A stretch of 64,000 bases of DNA, from NCBI GenBank assembly GCA_016658885.1, contig GCA_016658885.1_4807.1, one strand, 5' to 3'. How positions within the stretch are numbered: the first letter of the stretch is position 1; the number at the start of each line of letters is the position of its first letter. The translations under genes and the position numbers were made by a program. Under the pieces are notes generated by a model. The model was not told where the DNA came from and made no database searches. It worked only from the letters and a program-made list of their open reading frames with translations. Source of the stretch: a phage. Below, in pieces: positions 17,773 through 53,774 of this stretch.

Positions 17773-17807
17773 TCGCCGCCAGAGTTTTTAGTTGCTACTG
17801 GCGGCGA
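17773..17807 (+). other. GC-rich hairpin (10-bp stem, 15-nt loop) between helicase gene and the Lys/Ala/Glu-rich gene
   Basis: tcgccgccag...ctggcggcga; no downstream T-run. Confidence 0.4.
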
Positions 17808-17876
17808 CTGAAGGCATAATTAAGTTATCCCAAACGGGGAATATAAAATAAACTAATTTATTTAAGGACTGTGAAC

Positions 17877-18716
17877 ATGGCCGAAGCAATCAAAGTATTA
17901 TCTAAAGAAGAAAAACAAGCAGCTGCAGCAGAACGTCGTCGCGTGGCTGAAGAAAAACGTCTGGCTAAAAAGAAAGAAGCCGAAGAAAAACGCCAGAAGC
18001 GTGAGCAGGAAAAACAAGCCAAGCGTGAAGAAGCTGCGCTGAAACGCAAGCAGGCTGCTGATGAGAAGGCTCAGAAGCGTGCTGAAGAAGCAGCTAAGAA
18101 AGCTAAAGAGCGTGCAGAAAAGGCTGCTGCTAAGAAAGCAGAGCGTGAAGCTGCTAAAGCAGCGAAAGAAATCGAAAAGGCAAAGGCTAAAGAAGAAGCC
18201 AAGCGCCTGAAAGCTGAACAAGCTGCTGCTAAGAAAGCAGAGCGTGATCAAGCACGTGCTGCAGCGAAGGCCGAAAAAGAGAAGGCCAAAGAAGAAGCTA
18301 AAGCGAAACGCAAGGCAGAGCGTGAAGCTGCTAAGATTGCGGCTAAAGAAGCTGCAGAACAGCAGAAAGAACAGCGTAAGAAAGAAGCTGAAGAACGTCG
18401 CAAAGCCATCGCAGAACGTAAGGCTGCTAAAAAGGCAAACGGTCAGCGTCGTGCAAAAGCAACCCACTTCATCTACACTGGCAATGGCCTGAGCCAGCCG
18501 CAAGAGCATTCCACCCGTGGACGCGTTCTGGCTGCGATCAAAGAAGGCGAAGTTGGCGTGGCGCAGTCTATCGATGAGCTGGGCGAAAAAGTTAAAGATC
18601 AACTGTTTGGCGCTTCCGTTCGCTCCTACCTGAGCAAGCTGGAAGAGATGGGCCACATCGAGTTTGTCGATGTTGAATCCAACGAAGATGCCGAAGACAG
18701 TGATCAAGCGGAATAA
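17877..18716 (+). CDS. Lys/Ala/Glu/Arg-rich low-complexity protein (predicted long single alpha-helix) with C-terminal globular domain
   Basis: About 190 residues composed almost only of K, A, E, R, Q; ATG at 17877 with AAGGA SD; codon choice (GCT/GCA, CGT, GAA, AAA) typical of highly expressed enterobacterial genes; own terminator. Confidence 0.6.
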   Translation: MAEAIKVLSKEEKQAAAAERRRVAEEKRLAKKKEAEEKRQKREQEKQAKREEAALKRKQAADEKAQKRAEEAAKKAKERAEKAAAKKAEREAAKAAKEIEKAKAKEEAKRLKAEQAAAKKAERDQARAAAKAEKEKAKEEAKAKRKAEREAAKIAAKEAAEQQKEQRKKEAEERRKAIAERKAAKKANGQRRAKATHFIYTGNGLSQPQEHSTRGRVLAAIKEGEVGVAQSIDELGEKVKDQLFGASVRSYLSKLEEMGHIEFVDVESNEDAEDSDQAE

Positions 18717-18743
18717 CCTTAGGACGGTTATACAGCGGTAATT

Positions 18744-18770
18744 GACCCACACTTGTTGTGGGTCTTTTTT
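18744..18770 (+). terminator. rho-independent terminator
   Basis: gacccaca-cttgt-tgtgggtc followed by tttttt. Confidence 0.7.
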
Positions 18771-18848
18771 CATCTGTACTAAATAAAATGACTTGTTGCT
18801 GTAAAATAATTTAGCTATTATACTTCTCATATCACCCACAAAGGACAA

Positions 18849-19844
18849 ATGAACATGAAACAACCTGTAATGATTATCGGCGGCGGATTGGCAGGACTTA
18901 TCACAGCGTGTCACTTCCCGAACTCTATTGTGTACGAAGCAGGGGAGCGAGCGCAACAGCACAAGGCGCTGCTACGCTTTCGCGGCGAAGAAGTAAGCCG
19001 TATTACCGGAATCCCTTTTAAGGCCGTGACAGTTGACAAGGCTGTGTATTTTCGCGGCAACTACTACCACGACCATTGCCCAATCAACCTTGCCAATATG
19101 TATTCCATGAAGGTCACCAATCAATTTGGCAGCCGTTCAATCATGAAGCTTAAGACTGCAACGCGTTATATTGCGCCTGACGACTTTTATGATCAGCTTG
19201 TCGACAAACTGGGTGACCGCATATTCTTTAATACTCCGGTCGATACTCTTTGCGGCTATAGCGAGACGCCAATCATCAACACGTCGCCGCTGCCAGTCAT
19301 GATGAAGCTGGCTGGTATTGATCAGAATCTTGACTTTTCATTCGATAAAGCAAACATTCGCGTTTACCGCTTTAAGATTAAACGTAAGTGTGAACTTTAT
19401 CAAACCATTTACTTTCCTGACTACTCCGTCAGAACTTACCGCGCTTCAATCACTGGCGACACATTGATCATTGAAACAATTCCTTTGGTTAGCGTAAGTG
19501 AAGCCGCAGTTGAAGCCGCTGGCGGCATTACTCGTTACCGTGACATTAAGTTGCGTGCAGAAGTTGACGAAGTGTTGACGGCCTTTGGTCTATCATGGAG
19601 TGACATCGCTCTCGAAGAAGTTGAGAAGGTCGACCAGAAGTATGGCAAGATTGTCGACATTCCGAAAGACTTGCGACACGCTCTACTCCTACAACTTACC
19701 ATGGATTTGAACGTGTTTAGTGTCGGTCGCTTTGCTACCTGGCGAAACATTTTGCTTGATGACGTTGCTCATGACCTTGTTGAAGTTGAAAAACTCATCA
19801 AAGCAAATAACTATCAAAAATTTGCTTATATTGCTAATAAATAA
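18849..19844 (+). CDS. putative FAD/NAD(P)-binding oxidoreductase
   Basis: 331 aa; N-terminal Rossmann dinucleotide motif VMIIGGGLAGL; start may be second ATG at 18855. Confidence 0.45.
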   Translation: MNMKQPVMIIGGGLAGLITACHFPNSIVYEAGERAQQHKALLRFRGEEVSRITGIPFKAVTVDKAVYFRGNYYHDHCPINLANMYSMKVTNQFGSRSIMKLKTATRYIAPDDFYDQLVDKLGDRIFFNTPVDTLCGYSETPIINTSPLPVMMKLAGIDQNLDFSFDKANIRVYRFKIKRKCELYQTIYFPDYSVRTYRASITGDTLIIETIPLVSVSEAAVEAAGGITRYRDIKLRAEVDEVLTAFGLSWSDIALEEVEKVDQKYGKIVDIPKDLRHALLLQLTMDLNVFSVGRFATWRNILLDDVAHDLVEVEKLIKANNYQKFAYIANK

Positions 19845-19889
19845 TTTGCTTTCTGCTTCAATGGGCGTATACTTTAATCATTGAAGCAG
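19845..19889 (+). promoter_or_regulatory. candidate promoter (TTTGCT-N16-TATACT) embedded in an 11-bp-arm palindrome
   Basis: ctgcttcaatg (19853-19863) / cattgaagcag (19879-19889) flank the -10 hexamer; upstream of gene 19911. Confidence 0.4.
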
Positions 19890-19910
19890 AACTCATAAGA
19901 GGAAACGAAA

Positions 19911-20357
19911 ATGAAACGCATCACTGGAATCGCTCTTGCCGCAACTGCTATTCTCGGCACCATGTATATGGAAGCGACTGAAGCCGCTGTCCGTACTTCC
20001 GATTCAATCGCCGTGTATGATTGCGAAGCGATGGACGGTAAAACCGCAGCAACCACTGGCGCAACTATCACGGCTTACATCGGCGTGAACGAGCAAGAAG
20101 GTCTGAATATTCAGATTCAAGGATTCACAGGGAAAGGTGCCAACCGTACTCCGTGGATGCAGCGTTTCACTTTCGTTCAGCCTCGTTCAACTGGCGGCTT
20201 TATCAACTTGATTGGTGAAAACCGTTCTGGTGCAGAAATCTTTACATCAATGAGTTCTAATAATGAACCAAAGAAAAGTTTTCAGTTGCTTTATAACGCA
20301 CAATTCGTTTATCATTGCACCTTCTCTGGTGATCAGCAACTAGTGAATTACCGTTAA
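19911..20357 (+). CDS. predicted secreted protein
   Basis: 148 aa; AAGAGGAAA SD; N-terminal signal-peptide-like MKRITGIALAATAILGTMYMEA. Confidence 0.5.
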   Translation: MKRITGIALAATAILGTMYMEATEAAVRTSDSIAVYDCEAMDGKTAATTGATITAYIGVNEQEGLNIQIQGFTGKGANRTPWMQRFTFVQPRSTGGFINLIGENRSGAEIFTSMSSNNEPKKSFQLLYNAQFVYHCTFSGDQQLVNYR

Positions 20358-20370
20358 TAGGATAATTAAA

Positions 20371-21174
20371 ATGAAAGTTGAATTAATTCGATACACCCAA
20401 GATGCACTTGACCTTTTGCTGGAAACAAAGAACACGCGCATGACTGGTAAGCCCGTCTCTGAGATGACAGAATCAGAGAAGCAAGAGCACTGGCGCTATA
20501 TGCTTGACACCATCAAGTCACCTTTTGACTTTGTGGACTATATCTTTGATATCACTGATGTATCAAAGAACATGACCCATCAGATGGTACGCACACGCAC
20601 AGGCGCATATCAAGAACGCACCAGCCGCGCGCAGGAGTCATCTGCTTTTGATGCGATTCGTCCGAAAGCGTTTGAGTATGACGACCCTGACAGGGTTATC
20701 GGCGAGCGAATCGACGAGCAGCGTTTGAAGTTGGCTAACACATGGGACGACGCCATGGCGACCATTGACGCCCTATACCAAGAACTTCGCGCGGCTGGCG
20801 CAGAGATTCAAGATGCACGTGCCGTTTTGCCTTCTAATATGCAAACTCATATCATGGCAAAGTTCAACTTGCGCACGCTGCAACAGATGGCGTCAAACCG
20901 CTTGTGCACGCGCACACAAGGCGAGTATCAAGAAGTATTTCGCGCAATGGTTGCGGAAGTCCTCAAGGTGCACCCGTGGGCTAATCCTTTACTACAGCCG
21001 CAATGCATCGGTATGGGTAAATGCGCGTTTCCTCGTCACGGCAAAGCCCATTGCCCTTGGTATCGTGATTGGATGGATACTACGGCACAGCAAGAAGAGT
21101 TGCGCATCCAGTTTTGGAATGCGATGCCAATCACCAACAATCCAGTTGCTAAAGATGGAGTATCAAAAGGATGA
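20371..21174 (+). CDS. ThyX-family (flavin-dependent thymidylate synthase-like) protein with variant motif
   Basis: 267 aa; C-terminal DARAVLPSN...NLRTL...NRLCTRTQGEYQEVF resembles ThyX; expected RHR(x7)S signature reads RTRTGAYQERTS. Confidence 0.5.
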   Translation: MKVELIRYTQDALDLLLETKNTRMTGKPVSEMTESEKQEHWRYMLDTIKSPFDFVDYIFDITDVSKNMTHQMVRTRTGAYQERTSRAQESSAFDAIRPKAFEYDDPDRVIGERIDEQRLKLANTWDDAMATIDALYQELRAAGAEIQDARAVLPSNMQTHIMAKFNLRTLQQMASNRLCTRTQGEYQEVFRAMVAEVLKVHPWANPLLQPQCIGMGKCAFPRHGKAHCPWYRDWMDTTAQQEELRIQFWNAMPITNNPVAKDGVSKG

Positions 21175-22043
21175 GCATTAAAAACAGCGAAATCTTAAAC
21201 GTATTCGACCTTGACGGAACGCTGTTTGATGATCGTTGGCGCTTAGACCGCATTAAGGTGGCAGGTCCGTTGTCAGACTATGATGATTATCACAGCGGTA
21301 TTGGTTATGATCAGTTCTATCCTCACATTGCATCAGCAGTAGAGTCGGCATCTCTTCGCGGTGAGGCGGTTGAATATTGGACTGCAAGGCCAGAAAAATA
21401 CAGACAAGTGACTTTTGAACGTCTGGACAATGTTTTTCCTTTTGATGAATTTACAATCAAGATGAGAGACTATGGCGACAAACGTACATCAACTATTATG
21501 AAATCTGCATGGCTATCGCACGCTTTGCGGCACGGCGATTATCGAATCATCAATGTATTCGACGACCGACAAGACGTACTCGCGCGGATGCAAGATGAAG
21601 CATTGTATTATAATTCCGTTGCTCAAAATAAAATCGCTTTTACATTTAATCTTTGCAAGGCAGGTGAAGTGGTGCAACAATTAGCAATTGATCCAAGCGC
21701 AACAGGGCAAGAAGAGACTAAGGCTGTGGAAGTTGAACAATCTCCGGCAACTGCCGCCGATATTCTTGATGCAATGGCAGCAACCTTCCGTGAGCGCAAC
21801 GCTGTCTATGGCGATAACGCTGTGATGGTAGGTCAGGTTATGCAAGTGCTTTTCCCTAATGGCGTGACGTTGAAAACGCCGGAAGACTACCACATGTGGC
21901 ATCTGTTCGAGCTTAAGATTGTCAAGCTTACACGCTTCGCAATCAGCGGCCTGAAGCACGAAGACTCTATACACGATGATGGTGTTTACAGCGCCATGTG
22001 TGAACGTCTTGTTAACACCCATAATATTAATTTCAATAAATAG
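21171..22043 (+). CDS. HAD-superfamily phosphatase-like N-domain fused to unknown C-terminal domain
   Basis: 290 aa; motif I VFDLDGTLFDD, later FDDRQD; ATGA overlap with upstream gene. Confidence 0.45.
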   Translation: MSIKNSEILNVFDLDGTLFDDRWRLDRIKVAGPLSDYDDYHSGIGYDQFYPHIASAVESASLRGEAVEYWTARPEKYRQVTFERLDNVFPFDEFTIKMRDYGDKRTSTIMKSAWLSHALRHGDYRIINVFDDRQDVLARMQDEALYYNSVAQNKIAFTFNLCKAGEVVQQLAIDPSATGQEETKAVEVEQSPATAADILDAMAATFRERNAVYGDNAVMVGQVMQVLFPNGVTLKTPEDYHMWHLFELKIVKLTRFAISGLKHEDSIHDDGVYSAMCERLVNTHNINFNK

Positions 22044-22087
22044 TTTACTTGTGCGTTTCGATGAGTTATATTTATCTCATCGAAACG
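22044..22087 (+). promoter_or_regulatory. candidate promoter (TTTACT-N17-TATATT) embedded in a perfect 12-bp-arm palindrome
   Basis: cgtttcgatgag (22054-22065) / ctcatcgaaacg (22076-22087); related element at 29343-29385. Confidence 0.45.
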
Positions 22088-22108
22088 AAGTCCAAAAAGG
22101 ATAAATAA

Positions 22109-22792
22109 ATGAAAAAAGTAATTGTTGTAACTGGCTGCAATTCCGGTCTTGGTAAATCCATTTTTGACACCCTTGGCGCTTACGGTCATGAAGTTGTCGG
22201 TATTGATTTGGAGAACGGCTATGACATCCGTAACGCGAAACAGATGAAAGAGCTTCTCTCTCAATACGACGTAGAAGGCTTGATCAACTGCGCTGGCGTC
22301 AACTCCAACAACTGGTTCGAAGATGTTAACTACGAAGAGTTCAATCGCGTTATGCACACCAACGCCTTCTCTTTCGTCAACACGACTCAGGCCGCGCTGA
22401 AAAGTCTTATTGACAACAAAGGTTTTGTGATCAACATCGTTTCCAACGCTGCGCATATTCCTATGACGTCCAGCTTGTGTTATAATGCTTCCAAGGCTGC
22501 TGCGCTCATGATTAGCAAGCAGATGGCTCACGAGCTTACGCCTAAATACGGGATCACGGTATTCTCTATTAGTCCTAACAAGCTACGTGGTACTGGCATG
22601 TCCAAACAGATTGAAGATGCTGTTTGCGCGACTCGCGGCTGGACTCCTGAATACGCTGCTGAATACCAGAAAAAGGCACTGATGAATGGATTGGAGACTG
22701 AGCCGCAAGTAATTGCTGACTTCATTCGCCATATCTTAATTACGGGCGCATGGCGCTTTATGTCTGGTACTGATATTCCATTCGGTAAATAA
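22109..22792 (+). CDS. short-chain dehydrogenase/reductase (SDR) family oxidoreductase
   Basis: 227 aa; TGCNSGLG (TGxxxGxG) and YNASK (YxxxK) motifs. Confidence 0.65.
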   Translation: MKKVIVVTGCNSGLGKSIFDTLGAYGHEVVGIDLENGYDIRNAKQMKELLSQYDVEGLINCAGVNSNNWFEDVNYEEFNRVMHTNAFSFVNTTQAALKSLIDNKGFVINIVSNAAHIPMTSSLCYNASKAAALMISKQMAHELTPKYGITVFSISPNKLRGTGMSKQIEDAVCATRGWTPEYAAEYQKKALMNGLETEPQVIADFIRHILITGAWRFMSGTDIPFGK

Positions 22793-22888
22793 ATCACGAA
22801 AATTTGAGGTTGTCACACCCGCTCCTGAAAAGAAACAGGACGAAGACGACACAGTAATTAATCAATAATATTTAATTAAGGAAACAAA

Positions 22889-23440
22889 ATGCCACATTTT
22901 AAAATTGAACAAATCGCCCTGTCAATTCCAGGTGCTCAGCGCGCACAGAATTTCCTGGCTAAAATCGGCCTGACAGAATGGTTCCATGATCACGTTGTTG
23001 CTACTGGTCGCGTATTTGAAGCTGATGTCTTTAAGGGTCAGCGCGGCGATTGCACCAACGAAGCTGACTTGCGCTTCAACTATCAGGCTGGCAACGGCAC
23101 CGATGGCGGCGCTGGTAAGCCTCTTGAGCTTGAAATTCTTGACTATACAAAAGGTTGCAACTGGATTCACGAAAACATCGAATACATCGATGCGCACGAC
23201 AATCAGGTTAGCCATCTTGGTATGCACGTGACTGCCGCTGAACTTGCTGAATGGCGCAAGTTCTTTAAAGAAGAAGGCATTCAGGTTGCGCAGGAAGTTG
23301 TGACCGACTCTCACACCAACCCAAACATTGCTGGTCAGCGTCGTTACAACTATGTAATCTTTGATACTCGTGAAATCATCGGTGTCGACCTTAAATTCAT
23401 CGTACGGTTGAATCAAGACGGTACTCCGTACACTGTATAA
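22889..23440 (+). CDS. hypothetical protein, possible VOC (glyoxalase-like) fold
   Basis: 183 aa; two-half pattern (KIEQIALSIPG..., HLGMHVTAAE..., YVIFDTREIIGVDLKFI) loosely resembling VOC modules. Confidence 0.3.
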   Translation: MPHFKIEQIALSIPGAQRAQNFLAKIGLTEWFHDHVVATGRVFEADVFKGQRGDCTNEADLRFNYQAGNGTDGGAGKPLELEILDYTKGCNWIHENIEYIDAHDNQVSHLGMHVTAAELAEWRKFFKEEGIQVAQEVVTDSHTNPNIAGQRRYNYVIFDTREIIGVDLKFIVRLNQDGTPYTV

Positions 23441-30280: not shown

Positions 30281-31141
30281 ATGTCTAAGAAAGAAACTAC
30301 CGAAGTTGCAGTGAAAAACACCCAGATGTCCGCTATGGCTGATTTTGTCGATATGACCGATTTTGGCGCTGGTTTTGAAGGTGCCGATGCCGACGCTTAT
30401 GCCATTCCTTTTATCGTCGTACTGCAAAAGATGTCTCCGATGGTCGACGAAGATGATCCAAAACACGTGCCTGGCGCAAAAGCTGGTATGTTGTACAACA
30501 CCGTTACTGGTGAATTGTATGACGGCAAGAAAGGTGTGCAGATCATCCCTTGCGCATTCAAACGCACCTTCATTCTTTGGGGCGGTCGCGAGTCCGACGA
30601 TAAAGGCTTTAAAGGTGAATTCACCAAAGAGCACGTTGATGCAGAAGTCGCGGCAGGCCGCGCTGTTGAGATCAACGGTAAGGTATTCGTGCCGGACGAA
30701 AACGGCAAGGTGCACGAGAAGAAATCTCCTTACTACGCAGATACACGTAACCACTTCGTGATTCTGTTGAACGAAGAAACTGGTGAATTTGGTAGTGCAA
30801 TGCTGTCTCTGACTTCTTCCATGATCAAGCCGTCTCGCATGCTGATGACCGCTCTGCAGCAGAAGAAAGTTCAGACTCCGCAGGGTCTGAAAACTCCGCC
30901 GACCTTTATGAACATCGTTCGCATGGGTACTGCGTCTCAGTCCAAAGACGGCAACACCTGGTCCGTCCTGAAGTTTGAGCTGGAAGGTCTGGTGCAGGAC
31001 AAAGGTCTGTATGAAGTCGCCAAGGCATTCCACAACGACGTAGTTGGCGGTAACGTTAACATTGACCGCAGCAAGCAGGAAGAAGCAAGCGGTGCCGCTG
31101 GTCCTGTCAATGAAACTCCGACCGACGCAGAAGAGTTTTAA
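30281..31141 (+). CDS. hypothetical protein (possibly DNA-binding/recombination-associated by context only)
   Basis: 286 aa; no motif recognised. Confidence 0.45.
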   Translation: MSKKETTEVAVKNTQMSAMADFVDMTDFGAGFEGADADAYAIPFIVVLQKMSPMVDEDDPKHVPGAKAGMLYNTVTGELYDGKKGVQIIPCAFKRTFILWGGRESDDKGFKGEFTKEHVDAEVAAGRAVEINGKVFVPDENGKVHEKKSPYYADTRNHFVILLNEETGEFGSAMLSLTSSMIKPSRMLMTALQQKKVQTPQGLKTPPTFMNIVRMGTASQSKDGNTWSVLKFELEGLVQDKGLYEVAKAFHNDVVGGNVNIDRSKQEEASGAAGPVNETPTDAEEF

Positions 31142-52634: not shown

Positions 52635-53774
52635 TTAAATACCAGTCATACGGACGACTGCGAACGGACGCTTGAGCAGAACGCCTGCTGTTGCGTTTGC
52701 GTAGTCTTCAACGTAGCTCTTAGCACGCTTTTCAACGCCCAGAGTCATGAACTTGGTTTGAACCAGCTGACTGAATACGGAACCATCATCGCTTGAACCA
52801 TCGATTGAGGAATCGATGTGATCAGCGTACAGGTATGCCACGTTCAAGAAAGTCGGGTCGCTGCCAAGTGCGCCGTTGAGTTCCGGTGCAGACTTGATCT
52901 TCATCTTCGGATAAGTCTGGGTGATCCAGTCACGTACAGAAATACCGAAGTCAGTGGTGTTTGACAGCCAATCGATAGAGTTGGTCGGCAGCGCCAGAGT
53001 CATGTCAACCTTCTCTGGATCAATCTGGTCCTGAGAGTTCACACGAATTTGACGAACCATCAAACGGATGTCTGCAGTCACCTGTTGGAAGGTCGCAGTA
53101 GCCCAGCCGGAAGTGGTGTTGGAAGTCATCGCCGCTGGCAGGTTTGGATCATTCAGGAAGCCGAACGTGCGGTTGTTCCCGTTGTACCAACCATAGAAGC
53201 CGATTGCGTTACGCATGATTTCCAGAGATACAGCAGCCTGCTGGCGCTTGGTTTCTGCGGAGTTCAGACGCATCGCAGACGCGCGGCCTTCTTCCAGCAT
53301 ACCAACTGCCATACCCATTTCGCCACGAACGATAGAGCGACGTTCAAAGTTTACGTTCCAGCTTGCAAGAGGAATAGCGGTGAAATCACCATATTCAACT
53401 GCGGTGCCAGCTGGTTCAACGATGCCCTGAACGATTTCTGCATCTTCCCACTGGCCAACGGTATCAATACCAACCAGCTCGTCGATTTTACGAGCGGCGG
53501 TCATGATTTTGACGAAGCCAGGCAACCACTGCTGCAGGAACTGCAACGGGGTCGGGATTGACGGAGTGGTCTGCGGCGCAGTAAACGCGGCATCACCTAC
53601 GCGGAAAGCGCCTGCACGGTTTAAGTGCTCAATCTGATCACGCACAATCGCGGAATCAAACACAATACCGATACGAGCAAGCTGGGAAACAGCCGCGTCG
53701 GTTACGGATTGCATATCAAAAGGACGCACCTTGCTCGCTGGGAGGCGAGAGTGTGTTTGGCTAATGCGAGTCAT
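52635..53774 (-). CDS. putative major capsid protein
   Basis: 379 aa, AGGTGA SD; position after scaffold gene and small structural gene; family assignment by size and position. Confidence 0.5.

What the first reader, a model, noticed from the sequence alone, without database searches (positions are those of the whole stretch)
17877..18716. Stand-alone gene for a Lys/Ala/Glu/Arg-rich single-helix protein with host-like codon usage
About 190 residues are built almost only from K, A, E, R and Q (predicted long single alpha-helix or coiled coil), followed by an about 80-residue globular tail. The gene has its own upstream hairpin and a strong terminator. Its codon choice looks like highly expressed enterobacterial genes and differs from neighbouring phage genes. 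It could be a very abundant nucleoid or envelope-associated protein, or a host-derived acquisition.
Basis: seen in the sequence. Interest (0 to 1): 0.55.

Follow-up and report, generated by a model that had tools for sequence, protein, structure and literature searches.

The report
Abundant phage rod-plus-winged-helix protein
This is a real, heavily expressed gene of a PB1-like E. coli phage, wrongly labelled "TolA", that encodes a predicted 26-nm single helix with a continuous stripe of positive charge attached to a small winged-helix domain, most likely a DNA-coating protein whose function has never been tested.

Summary
ORF 17877-18716 (+) encodes 279 aa. Residues 1-195 are 92% A/K/E/R/Q. 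The gene has an upstream hairpin, a sigma70-like promoter, an RBS and an intrinsic terminator. Its E. coli codon adaptation is the highest of 81 ORFs in the window (CAI 0.61, median 0.28), and amino-acid composition does not explain it (z = +10).

The window is a Wifcevirus (99% identical to phage FEC19). The gene is a conserved, syntenic gene of PB1-like phages (Lindbergviridae), not a host acquisition and not TolA.
- It has no membrane anchor and no TolA domain III. BLASTP against E. coli TolA gives E = 0.21. No DNA match exists in 5,426 E. coli genomes.
- The Pseudomonas phage 14-1 ortholog is equally codon-optimised towards that phage's own structural genes. The bias therefore reflects abundance. 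Published mass spectrometry confirms expression.

New here: AlphaFold predicts one helix (aa 10-185) followed by a winged-helix-like domain and an acidic tail. In every genus tested, Lys/Arg follow an 11/3 periodicity, giving a basic stripe (net +40) opposite an acidic face. E. coli TolA lacks this pattern. The closest functional analogue is the DNA-binding single alpha-helix plus winged-helix domain of eukaryotic CAF-1. DNA binding is inferred, not shown.

The parts
17773..17807 (+). Upstream inverted repeat or RNA hairpin (arms TCGCCGCCAG / CTGGCGGCGA, 15-nt loop). It lies between the helicase stop codon (17717) and the gene, and its 3' arm overlaps the predicted promoter spacer.
   Evidence: -24.1 kcal/mol, z = -4.4. 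No T-run follows it, so its role is unresolved: attenuator or terminator for helicase read-through, RNA stability element, or operator. Other copies of the arm motif in the window lie inside coding regions.
17792..17820 (+). Sigma70-like promoter candidate, TTGCTA-17 nt-CATAAT.
   Evidence: Consensus scan, 9 of 12 matches. Similar TTGCCT-N17-(G/T)ATAAT-type sites lie upstream of the orthologs in Serratia phage MTx and Aeromonas phage Gekk3-15. This is inferred and not mapped experimentally.
17864..17868 (+). Ribosome-binding site AAGGA, 8 nt before the ATG.
   Evidence: Read directly from the sequence.
17877..18716 (+). Coding sequence, 279 aa plus stop. It corresponds to FEC19 gp32, vB_Eco4M-7_83 and ECML-117 gp81 (all labelled 'TolA protein'), to Bas99_0053 (labelled hypothetical protein), and to PHROG 4765.
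   Evidence: Expression shown by mass spectrometry in PMC7048862.
17904..18431 (+). Residues 10-185: one predicted uninterrupted alpha-helix of about 26 nm with no hydrophobic seam. K/R occupy hendecad positions 0, 3, 7 and 10, forming a basic stripe.
   Evidence: AF2 pLDDT 83-97 over this span. K/R periodicity of 3.7 residues is reached by 0 of 1000 shuffles. The 120-degree stripe sector holds 42 K/R and 2 D/E, net +40, while the rest of the helix nets -16. No heptad register has more than 3 hydrophobic residues at a/d positions.
18441..18461 (+). Residues 189-195, GQRRAKA: a conserved basic arm (family consensus G-x-R-R-P/A-K/R-A-T-H) directly before the globular domain.
   Evidence: R191, R192 and A195 are at least 90% conserved. 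The RRP(K/R) form appears in most homologs.
18462..18674 (+). Residues 196-266: winged-helix-like domain (strand 197-200, helix 213-222, strand 229-231, helices 232-238 and 248-257, strand 261-264). The third helix carries the invariant motif R-S-x-L-S-K-L-E-E-x-G-H.
18675..18713 (+). Residues 267-279: a disordered acidic tail (SNEDAEDSDQAE in ...VESNEDAEDSDQAE).
   Evidence: pLDDT below 50. An acidic tail of net charge 0 to -18 is present in nearly all homologs (one is +1), and many end in -AE.
18744..18770 (+). Intrinsic terminator: 8-bp G+C-rich stem, 5-nt loop, then T6.
   Evidence: Equivalent terminators follow the orthologs in LBL3, MTx, Gekk3-15 and tabernarius.

Best explanation
The gene encodes an abundant cytoplasmic protein specific to PB1-like phages (Lindbergviridae). 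Its most likely function is to bind nucleic acid, probably double-stranded DNA, with little or no sequence specificity.

Shown: the gene is real, monocistronic in layout, strongly codon-optimised and expressed. It is conserved in position inside the replication and nucleotide-metabolism module.

Predicted from sequence and AlphaFold: residues 10-185 form one rigid helix of about 26 nm. Its Lys/Arg residues follow an 11/3 (hendecad) spacing, so they line up as a continuous basic stripe facing away from an acidic/alanine face. A conserved Arg-Arg arm and a winged-helix-like domain follow, and then a short acidic tail.

Inferred mechanism: the winged-helix domain and RR arm anchor the protein on DNA, and the basic stripe lies along the duplex and neutralises it. 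This is what has been demonstrated for the single-alpha-helix DNA-binding KER domain of CAF-1, which works together with a C-terminal winged-helix domain. The acidic face and tail would keep bound molecules from aggregating, or would recruit partner proteins. Many copies would coat replicating phage DNA, and some may be carried into CsCl-purified particles with the genome.
For: Gene and expression:
- Real, expressed gene.
- Highest CAI in the window, not explained by composition.
- The same signature in the 14-1 ortholog relative to its own capsid and tail genes.

Structure:
- AF2 gives a single helix plus a winged-helix-like domain.

Basic stripe:
- K/R periodicity of 3.65-3.7 residues with 0 of 1000 shuffles reaching it, in window, LBL3, 14-1, MTx, tabernarius and Gekk3-15 proteins and in about 20 of 28 metagenomic relatives.
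- The stripe sector holds 42 K/R against 2 D/E.
- The pattern is absent from E. coli TolA domain II, which has similar composition (p = 0.85).
- The helix is net positive in all homologs but one (+2 to +26).

Other features:
- Conserved RR(P/A)K arm, and invariant exposed residues on the third helix.
- Position immediately after the Dda-like helicase and before ThyX, PNKP and the polymerase genes in five genera. A distant relative lacking the helix also sits before ThyX, PNKP and the polymerase.

Precedent: the CAF-1 KER is a single alpha-helix with a basic stripe on one face that binds DNA at nM affinity and cooperates with a winged-helix domain (PMC10335832).
Against: - No DNA-binding experiment exists for any family member.
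- Foldseek finds no significant PDB match (best E = 0.55). No Pfam, NCBIfam or PDB sequence match exists.
- Whole-protein net charge ranges from -23 to +17 across homologs. Bulk positive charge is therefore not conserved; only the stripe is.
- The classical single-alpha-helix signature of E(i)-K(i+4) pairs is not enriched (z = -0.5), although K(i)-E(i+4) is (z = +3.2).
- AlphaFold draws any such sequence as a single helix when it is modelled as a monomer.
Confidence: 0.42

Rival explanations
1. Protein-protein adaptor or spacer of the phage replication machinery. The winged-helix domain and the acidic tail dock onto a conserved phage protein such as the adjacent Dda-like helicase, a primase or the polymerase. 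The rigid helix acts as a spacer or as an electrostatic tether.
Against: Adaptors are rarely the most codon-optimised gene of a genome. A distant member keeps the winged-helix domain and the position before ThyX but has no adjacent Dda helicase. A basic stripe of net +40 calls for a polyanionic ligand.
Confidence: 0.2
2. Virion component: an internal protein packaged with the DNA and possibly ejected into the host.
For: The protein was detected in CsCl-purified vB_Eco4M-7 with a score of 1198, which is 6th of 33 and above the portal, the major capsid protein and the sheath. It was also detected in ECML-117. The LBL3 ortholog ORF66 is annotated 'putative structural protein' in the record of the group that did the PB1-like structural proteome.
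Against: The same preparations contained clear non-structural proteins, such as helicase, a glyoxalase-like protein and a reductase, and the ECML-117 signal is weak (2 peptides, score 3.2). The gene sits in the replication module behind a sigma70-like promoter. Its helix length varies more than two-fold (about 50-230 aa) among phages with the same virion plan. In Pbunavirus Pa193 the scaffold role is assigned to gp24 in the head module. I could not read the Pa193 LC-MS tables.
Confidence: 0.15
3. RNA- or ribosome-associated factor. The basic stripe and the winged-helix-like domain bind rRNA or mRNA in order to favour phage translation.
Against: The Foldseek E-values are not significant (0.55 or worse). 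The genomic context is DNA replication and nucleotide metabolism throughout the family.
Confidence: 0.08
4. Sequence-specific transcription regulator, possibly autoregulating through the inverted repeat that overlaps its own promoter.
For: It has a winged-helix domain. A perfect 10-bp inverted repeat overlaps the predicted promoter. Strong hairpins or inverted repeats also precede the orthologs.
Against: Regulators are not normally the most highly expressed genes. The repeat sequences differ between genera although the third helix is invariant. No other intergenic copy of the half-site exists in the window. The 176-residue helix would be left unexplained.
Confidence: 0.06
5. TolA-like envelope protein, or a gene recently captured from the host (the existing database annotation and the first reader's alternative).
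For: Only the K/A/E-rich composition, which resembles TolA domain II, and the E. coli-like codon usage.
Against: There is no membrane anchor. There are no TolA domains. BLASTP gives E = 0.21. No E. coli DNA match exists. The gene is conserved and syntenic in phages of other hosts. The family has only 38 clusters among 1.84 billion representatives. Those members I could place (named phages, 70-kb-class metagenomic contigs and contig L012) are all phage-like.
Confidence: 0.02

Closest known systems
KER single-alpha-helix DNA-binding domain plus C-terminal winged-helix domain of chromatin assembly factor 1 (yeast Cac1 / human CHAF1A)
   Same: A Lys/Glu/Arg-rich single helix whose basic residues are biased to one face, combined in one polypeptide with a winged-helix domain and an acidic region. 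In CAF-1 the helix binds DNA non-specifically at nM affinity and acts as a spacer (PMC10335832).
   Different: There is no detectable homology: the Pfam CAF1A hits in homologs have E = 2.6-5.5. The phage helix is about twice as long (176 aa against 90 aa) and is 30% alanine. The domain order differs, with the helix directly fused to the winged-helix domain. There is no histone-binding context. DNA binding is untested.
E. coli TolA (the current database label)
   Same: A long K/A/E-rich predicted helical region.
   Different: TolA has an N-terminal membrane anchor and a C-terminal domain III, and the phage protein has neither. There is no significant similarity. TolA domain II has no K/R helical periodicity.
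Linker histone H1 and bacterial H1-like proteins (Hc1, AlgP, the PhaF C-terminal domain)
   Same: A winged-helix-type globular domain combined with a long Lys/Ala-rich segment, and high abundance.
   Different: H1 tails are disordered, Pro-containing and almost free of acidic residues (my own knowledge), whereas here the segment is 20% Glu and predicted helical. The Foldseek match to the yeast H1 globular domain is not significant (E = 3.4).
Phage-encoded histone-like proteins such as phi29 p6 and SPO1 TF1
   Same: The concept is the same: a very abundant early or middle phage protein that coats phage DNA.
   Different: These are unrelated folds and sizes (my own knowledge). No similarity was tested or seen here.
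Classical single alpha-helix (ER/K) domains of myosins, caldesmon and drebrin
   Same: A charged helix without a hydrophobic seam, predicted to be monomeric and rigid.
   Different: In the CAF-1 study the myosin 7a single alpha-helix neither binds DNA nor has a basic stripe. The phage helix has a stripe of net +40 and is net positive.

Membership tests
TolA (Tol-Pal system) | N-terminal transmembrane anchor (domain I) | tested here: not met
   The maximum Kyte-Doolittle 19-residue window is 0.61, against 2.45 for the E. coli TolA anchor.
TolA (Tol-Pal system) | C-terminal domain III, or any TolA profile match | tested here: not met
   No Pfam hit at E <= 1. No NCBIfam TolA hit at E <= 1. BLASTP against E. 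coli TolA gives E = 0.21, and only within low-complexity stretches.
TolA (Tol-Pal system) | Long Ala/Lys/Glu-rich helical domain II | tested here: met
   The composition is similar, but this is composition only, and TolA lacks the K/R periodicity.
Winged-helix fold | Three-helix bundle packed against a small beta-sheet | tested here: met
Winged-helix fold | Sequence membership of a curated winged-helix family | tested here: not met
   No Pfam, NCBIfam or PDB-sequence match, even with a family profile. The best Foldseek PDB hit has E = 0.55.
Winged-helix fold | DNA binding through helix 3 and the wing | not testable with these tools
   Only indirect evidence: invariant R249, S250, S253, K254, G259 and H260, and the RR arm.
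Single alpha-helix (SAH / ER-K) domain | Long charged helix without a hydrophobic heptad seam | tested here: met
   AF2 predicts a continuous helix over residues 10-185. At most 3 hydrophobic residues occupy a/d positions in any register, and only 5% of residues are L/I/V.
Single alpha-helix (SAH / ER-K) domain | Enrichment of stabilising i/i+4 and i/i+3 opposite-charge pairs | tested here: inconclusive
   K to E at i+4 has z = +3.2 and E to K at i+3 has z = +1.7, but E to K at i+4 has z = -0.5.
Single alpha-helix (SAH / ER-K) domain | Monomeric state and non-cooperative unfolding in solution | not testable with these tools
   This needs CD melting, AUC or SAXS.
SAH DNA-binding domain (CAF-1 KER type) | Basic residues biased to one face along the helix | tested here: met
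   K/R period 3.65-3.7 with 0 of 1000 shuffles reaching it. The stripe sector holds 42 K/R and 2 D/E. The pattern is conserved in five genera and in most metagenomic relatives.
SAH DNA-binding domain (CAF-1 KER type) | Homology to CAF-1 p150/Cac1 | tested here: not met
   Only non-significant compositional Pfam hits to CAF1A_acidic in two homologs (E = 2.6-5.5). This is an analogue, not a family member.
SAH DNA-binding domain (CAF-1 KER type) | Demonstrated DNA binding | not testable with these tools
   An EMSA is needed.
Coiled coil (heptad or hendecad) | Hydrophobic core stripe at a/d or a/d/e/h positions | tested here: not met
   The geometrically equivalent hendecad positions (0, 3, 7, 10) are filled with K/R, not hydrophobic residues.
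Phage scaffolding protein | Encoded in the head module next to the protease and major capsid genes | tested here: not met
   The gene lies in the replication module. The Pbunavirus scaffold was assigned to Pa193 gp24 in the head module.
PHROG 4765 (unknown function) | Profile match over the full length | tested here: met
   E = 3.5e-84, residues 1-279.

The most novel reading that the evidence does not exclude
This is the first prokaryotic-virus example of a single-alpha-helix DNA-binding domain. It is twice the length of the CAF-1 KER and is fused to a winged-helix anchor. It acts as a phage 'linker histone' that coats the phage genome during replication and is partly carried in the virion. 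[quoted passage not shown]
Probability: 0.1. Interest if true: 0.8.

Novelty: new variant of a known kind. Interest (0 to 1): 0.5.

Why it matters
- Therapeutic relevance. PB1-like phages (Pbunavirus) are among the Pseudomonas phages most often used in therapy. Wifceviruses are unusually fast and resist restriction for unknown reasons. This gene is one of their two most codon-optimised non-structural genes, yet it has no known function and carries a misleading 'TolA' or 'structural protein' label in dozens of GenBank records.
- Structural interest. Experimental confirmation of the predicted architecture would extend the recently defined single-alpha-helix DNA-binding class from one eukaryotic chaperone to bacterial viruses. 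It would also give a very simple, tunable rod-shaped DNA binder.
- Immediate use. The TolA annotation should be dropped, and the host-like codon usage should be read as an abundance signal, not as evidence of horizontal transfer.

Tried and rejected
- Host acquisition. blastn (word size 11) of the gene against all complete E. coli genomes found no match.
- TolA membership. Rejected.
- Sequence-level family assignment of the C-terminal domain. Pfam, NCBIfam, and PDB searches with a single sequence and with a profile all gave nothing significant. The weak hits (Augmin, YEATS) are chance.
- Fold searches. Foldseek against PDB found nothing significant. BFVD returned only the family itself. The afdb50 library was unavailable.
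- Word-index homolog search with the C-domain alone returned only 5 proteins. The full-length query and the exhaustive profile search were needed.
- Repeated operator hypothesis. CTGGCGGCGAC is enriched (11 hits against 0.8 expected), but every other copy lies inside a coding region, in various frames, without a hairpin. This is a coding artefact.
- Internal DNA tandem repeats as the origin of the helix. Only one 15-bp, two-copy array was found, so the region is not a recent repeat expansion.
- Rfam scan of the locus. Nothing was found.
- Scaffolding or ruler role. The gene position, the variable helix length and the published Pa193 scaffold assignment argue against it.
- Literature. No functional study of any ortholog was found. 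Ceyssens et al. 2009 (the PB1-like structural proteome) and the supplementary tables of the Pa193 LC-MS study and the 14-1 ONT-cappable-seq study are not held. Virion stoichiometry and the exact transcription start and stop sites could therefore not be checked.
- phmmer of the helix region against PDB returned nothing, so I could not run the periodicity test on the CAF-1 KER sequence itself.
Full report
**What is there**

The window is a Wifcevirus. The locus is 99% identical to Escherichia phage FEC19 and 97-99% identical to 28 other Escherichia and Shigella phage records. The ORF 17877-18716 (+) is FEC19 gp32, annotated 'TolA protein'. It is listed as hypothetical in the curated BASEL genomes.

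The ORF encodes 279 aa (31.2 kDa, pI 9.6).
- Residues 1-195 are 92% A/K/E/R/Q with net charge +28.
- The last 84 residues have normal composition and net charge -11.
- ATG 17877 is preceded by AAGGA at the correct distance.

- a -24 kcal/mol hairpin at 17773-17807;
- a sigma70-like TTGCTA-17-CATAAT site at 17792-17820;
- a canonical intrinsic terminator at 18744-18770.

The longer antisense ORF (17898-18962) is only the stop-free complement of a GAA/GCT/AAA-rich gene.

**Codon usage**

With the Sharp and Li E. coli weights (entered from memory), the gene has CAI 0.61. This is the highest of 81 ORFs of at least 80 codons in the window, where the median is 0.28.

I re-drew codons for the same amino-acid sequence from the phage-wide synonymous frequencies. 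This gives 0.37 +/- 0.02, so z = +10. Both the low-complexity part and the globular part are biased.

The next most biased genes are a Pam3_Gp34-like gene (30281-31141) and the major capsid gene (52635-53774). High CAI in this phage therefore marks abundant proteins.

A reference-free test was also run, with weights taken from the phage's own capsid, decoration, sheath and tube genes.
- The gene ranks 2 of 77 in the window.
- Its ortholog gp67 ranks 2 of 67 in Pseudomonas phage 14-1 (z = +7.1).
- The Pam3_Gp34-like ortholog ranks first in both phages.

Two phages on hosts with different codon preferences show the same ranking. That points to translational selection, not recent capture from E. 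coli. Consistent with this, blastn against 5,426 complete E. coli genomes finds nothing.

**Expression**

Necel et al. (PMC7048862) analysed CsCl-purified vB_Eco4M-7 and ECML-117 by LC-MS/MS.
- In vB_Eco4M-7 the 31.1-kDa 'TolA protein' gave 7 peptides, 25.8% coverage and a score of 1198. That is the 6th highest of 33 proteins, above the portal, major capsid and sheath proteins.
- In ECML-117 it gave 2 peptides.
- Only seven fully tryptic peptides of at least 7 residues can be produced from this protein, so detection was close to saturating.

The same preparations also contained helicase, a glyoxalase-like protein, a reductase and the Pam3_Gp34-like protein. The data prove expression and abundance, but they do not prove that the protein is a virion component.

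**Family and context**

tblastn with the C-terminal 89 residues finds 357 phage records, mostly Pseudomonas Pbunavirus. It also finds Serratia, Burkholderia, Xanthomonas, Pantoea and Aeromonas phages. This matches the new family Lindbergviridae of PB1-like phages.

Gene order is conserved in Wifcevirus, Pbunavirus (LBL3, 14-1), Myosmarvirus, Tabernariusvirus and Aeromonas phage Gekk3-15. The gene follows the Dda-like helicase directly. Except in tabernarius, a gene of about 330 aa, ThyX, a polynucleotide kinase/phosphatase and a FabG-like reductase lie downstream. In all five, a promoter-like site lies upstream and a strong intrinsic terminator lies downstream.

An exhaustive profile search of 1.84 billion cluster representatives finds only 38 clusters. 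Almost all have the same plan: a charged segment of 50-230 residues, then a conserved G-x-RR-(P/A)-(K/R)-A-T-H arm, a conserved domain of about 70 residues, and an acidic tail.

A distant member without the charged helix (P0040) still sits just before a 282-aa gene, ThyX, PNKP, SDR, glyoxalase, exonuclease and Pol III alpha, in a 35-kb metagenomic contig. The C-terminal domain is therefore the ancient core, and the helix is an elaboration.

**Structure**

AlphaFold2 with a 12-sequence alignment predicts the following:
- one unbroken helix over residues 10-185 (pLDDT 83-97);
- strand 197-200, helix 213-222, strand 229-231, helices 232-238 and 248-257, and strand 261-264;
- a disordered tail.

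Foldseek finds nothing significant in the PDB and finds only the family itself in BFVD. No sequence profile (Pfam, NCBIfam, PDB) matches. The domain is therefore winged-helix-like but belongs to no described family.

Its third helix carries the invariant R249, S250, L252, S253, K254, L255, E256, E257, G259 and H260.

**The helix has an ordered charge pattern**

The helix has no hydrophobic seam in any heptad register, so a canonical coiled coil is unlikely.

Lys/Arg are strongly periodic at 3.65-3.7 residues (11/3).
- None of 1000 composition-preserving shuffles reaches the observed power in the window protein, LBL3 ORF66, 14-1 gp67, MTx, tabernarius, Gekk3-15, or about 20 of 28 metagenomic relatives with long helices.
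- Across homologs, K/R-K/R pairs are about two-fold enriched at lags 4, 7, 11, 15, 18, 22 and on to 33.
- Asp/Glu, and Ala in most homologs, sit about 180 degrees away.

In the window protein, hendecad positions 0, 3, 7 and 10 hold 42 of the 64 K/R and only 2 of the 40 D/E. That 120-degree sector has net charge +40, and the rest of the helix has net -16. Geometrically these are the a/d/e/h 'core' positions of a hendecad coiled coil, but here they are filled with cations. Such a stripe cannot pair with itself and calls for a polyanionic partner.

E. coli TolA domain II has very similar composition and shows no such periodicity (p = 0.85). The stripe is therefore not a by-product of composition. 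The helix sequence itself is poorly conserved while the stripe is conserved, so the stripe appears to be the selected feature.

**Mechanism**

The only experimentally characterised helix of this type I could find is the KER domain of CAF-1.
- It binds DNA non-specifically at nM affinity, whereas the myosin 7a single alpha-helix does not.
- It cooperates with CAF-1's C-terminal winged-helix domain (PMC10335832).

By analogy, I propose that the phage protein is an abundant DNA-coating or architectural protein. It would be anchored by the RR arm and the winged-helix domain, with the 26-nm basic stripe lying along the duplex. The acidic face and tail would limit aggregation or recruit partners. 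The position of the gene in the replication module, its extreme expression signature and its co-purification with DNA-filled particles all fit this.

The steps 'binds DNA', 'is monomeric' and 'coats phage DNA' are inferences. Arguments against:
- the winged-helix core is slightly acidic;
- its invariant helix contains two glutamates;
- whole-protein charge varies from -23 to +17 in the family;

I put the DNA-binding model at about 0.4. The rivals are a replisome adaptor or spacer (0.2), a packaged internal protein (0.15, not exclusive of the main model), an RNA- or ribosome-binding factor (0.08), a specific regulator (0.06), and TolA-like or host-derived (0.02).

**Comparison with known systems and novelty**

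The protein is not TolA. It lacks the anchor, it lacks domain III, and it has no significant similarity. It is not a scaffolding protein, since Pa193 gp24 in the head module has that role. It is an analogue of CAF-1 KER plus winged-helix domain, not a homolog. It resembles linker histones only in the broad sense of a winged-helix domain plus a basic extension.

No paper in the searchable library describes a function for any ortholog, or a single-alpha-helix DNA-binding domain in a phage. The family is already catalogued (PHROG 4765), so the gene is not new. The charge-stripe architecture and the functional proposal are new.

I rate it a new variant of a known kind (phage DNA-associated architectural proteins; SAH-type DNA binders) and of moderate interest. 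The most novel reading not excluded is that the protein provides the so-far unexplained restriction resistance of Wifceviruses. I give that about 10%.

Noticed in passing
window 30281-31141 (+): A 286-aa protein matching Pfam PF23977 (Pam3_Gp34-like) and PHROG 2402, of unknown function. It is the second most codon-adapted gene in the window, and its ortholog gp52 ranks first in Pseudomonas phage 14-1. A 31.2-kDa 'unknown protein' that probably corresponds to it was detected by mass spectrometry in both Wifceviruses. It appears to be another very abundant protein of unknown role.
   Followed up: partly
window 18849-23440 (+), and locus L012 6666-11149: A conserved cassette lies downstream of the target: a 331-aa ORF with an N-terminal GGGLAG dinucleotide-binding motif (no Pfam hit), a 148-aa ORF, ThyX, a polynucleotide kinase/phosphatase, a FabG-like reductase, a glyoxalase-like protein, then the exonuclease and DNA polymerase. 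The same order occurs in a distant metagenomic phage contig. It could be a nucleotide or DNA modification pathway. The BASEL study notes that Wifceviruses resist restriction-modification systems without any known protection mechanism.
   Followed up: no
window 22889-23440 (+): A 183-aa protein, apparently the one called 'glyoxalase family' in the mass-spectrometry paper (20.8 kDa; matched by size). It has no PHROG or Pfam hit here, ranks 4th in CAI (0.50), and was detected with 8 peptides in a CsCl-purified phage preparation.
   Followed up: partly
window 17898-18962 (-): A 354-aa antisense ORF that is longer than the real gene. It is rich in F/L/S/C and exists only because the complement of GAA/GCT/AAA-rich sequence has no stop codons. 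It would mislead longest-ORF gene callers.
   Followed up: yes
window-wide (for example 1223, 36266, 42692, 45185, 54976): The hairpin arm motif CTGGCGGCGAC occurs 11 times with at most 1 mismatch, against 0.8 expected. All copies outside the hairpin lie inside coding regions in different frames and lack a hairpin, so this is most likely a codon-usage artefact.
   Followed up: yes
homologs P0009-P0013, P0020, P0027; locus L005 3179-4321 (phage tabernarius): Several relatives start with His-rich segments (MSHGHHHH...GHTHG, NHDHQHNHQHNH) that the window protein lacks. These might bind metal ions.
   Followed up: no
whole genome (Bas99 annotation, loci L007 and L008): No single-stranded-DNA-binding protein and no small terminase subunit is annotated in the curated Wifcevirus genome, although it has a full set of helicases, primases, polymerase and ligase.
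   Followed up: no
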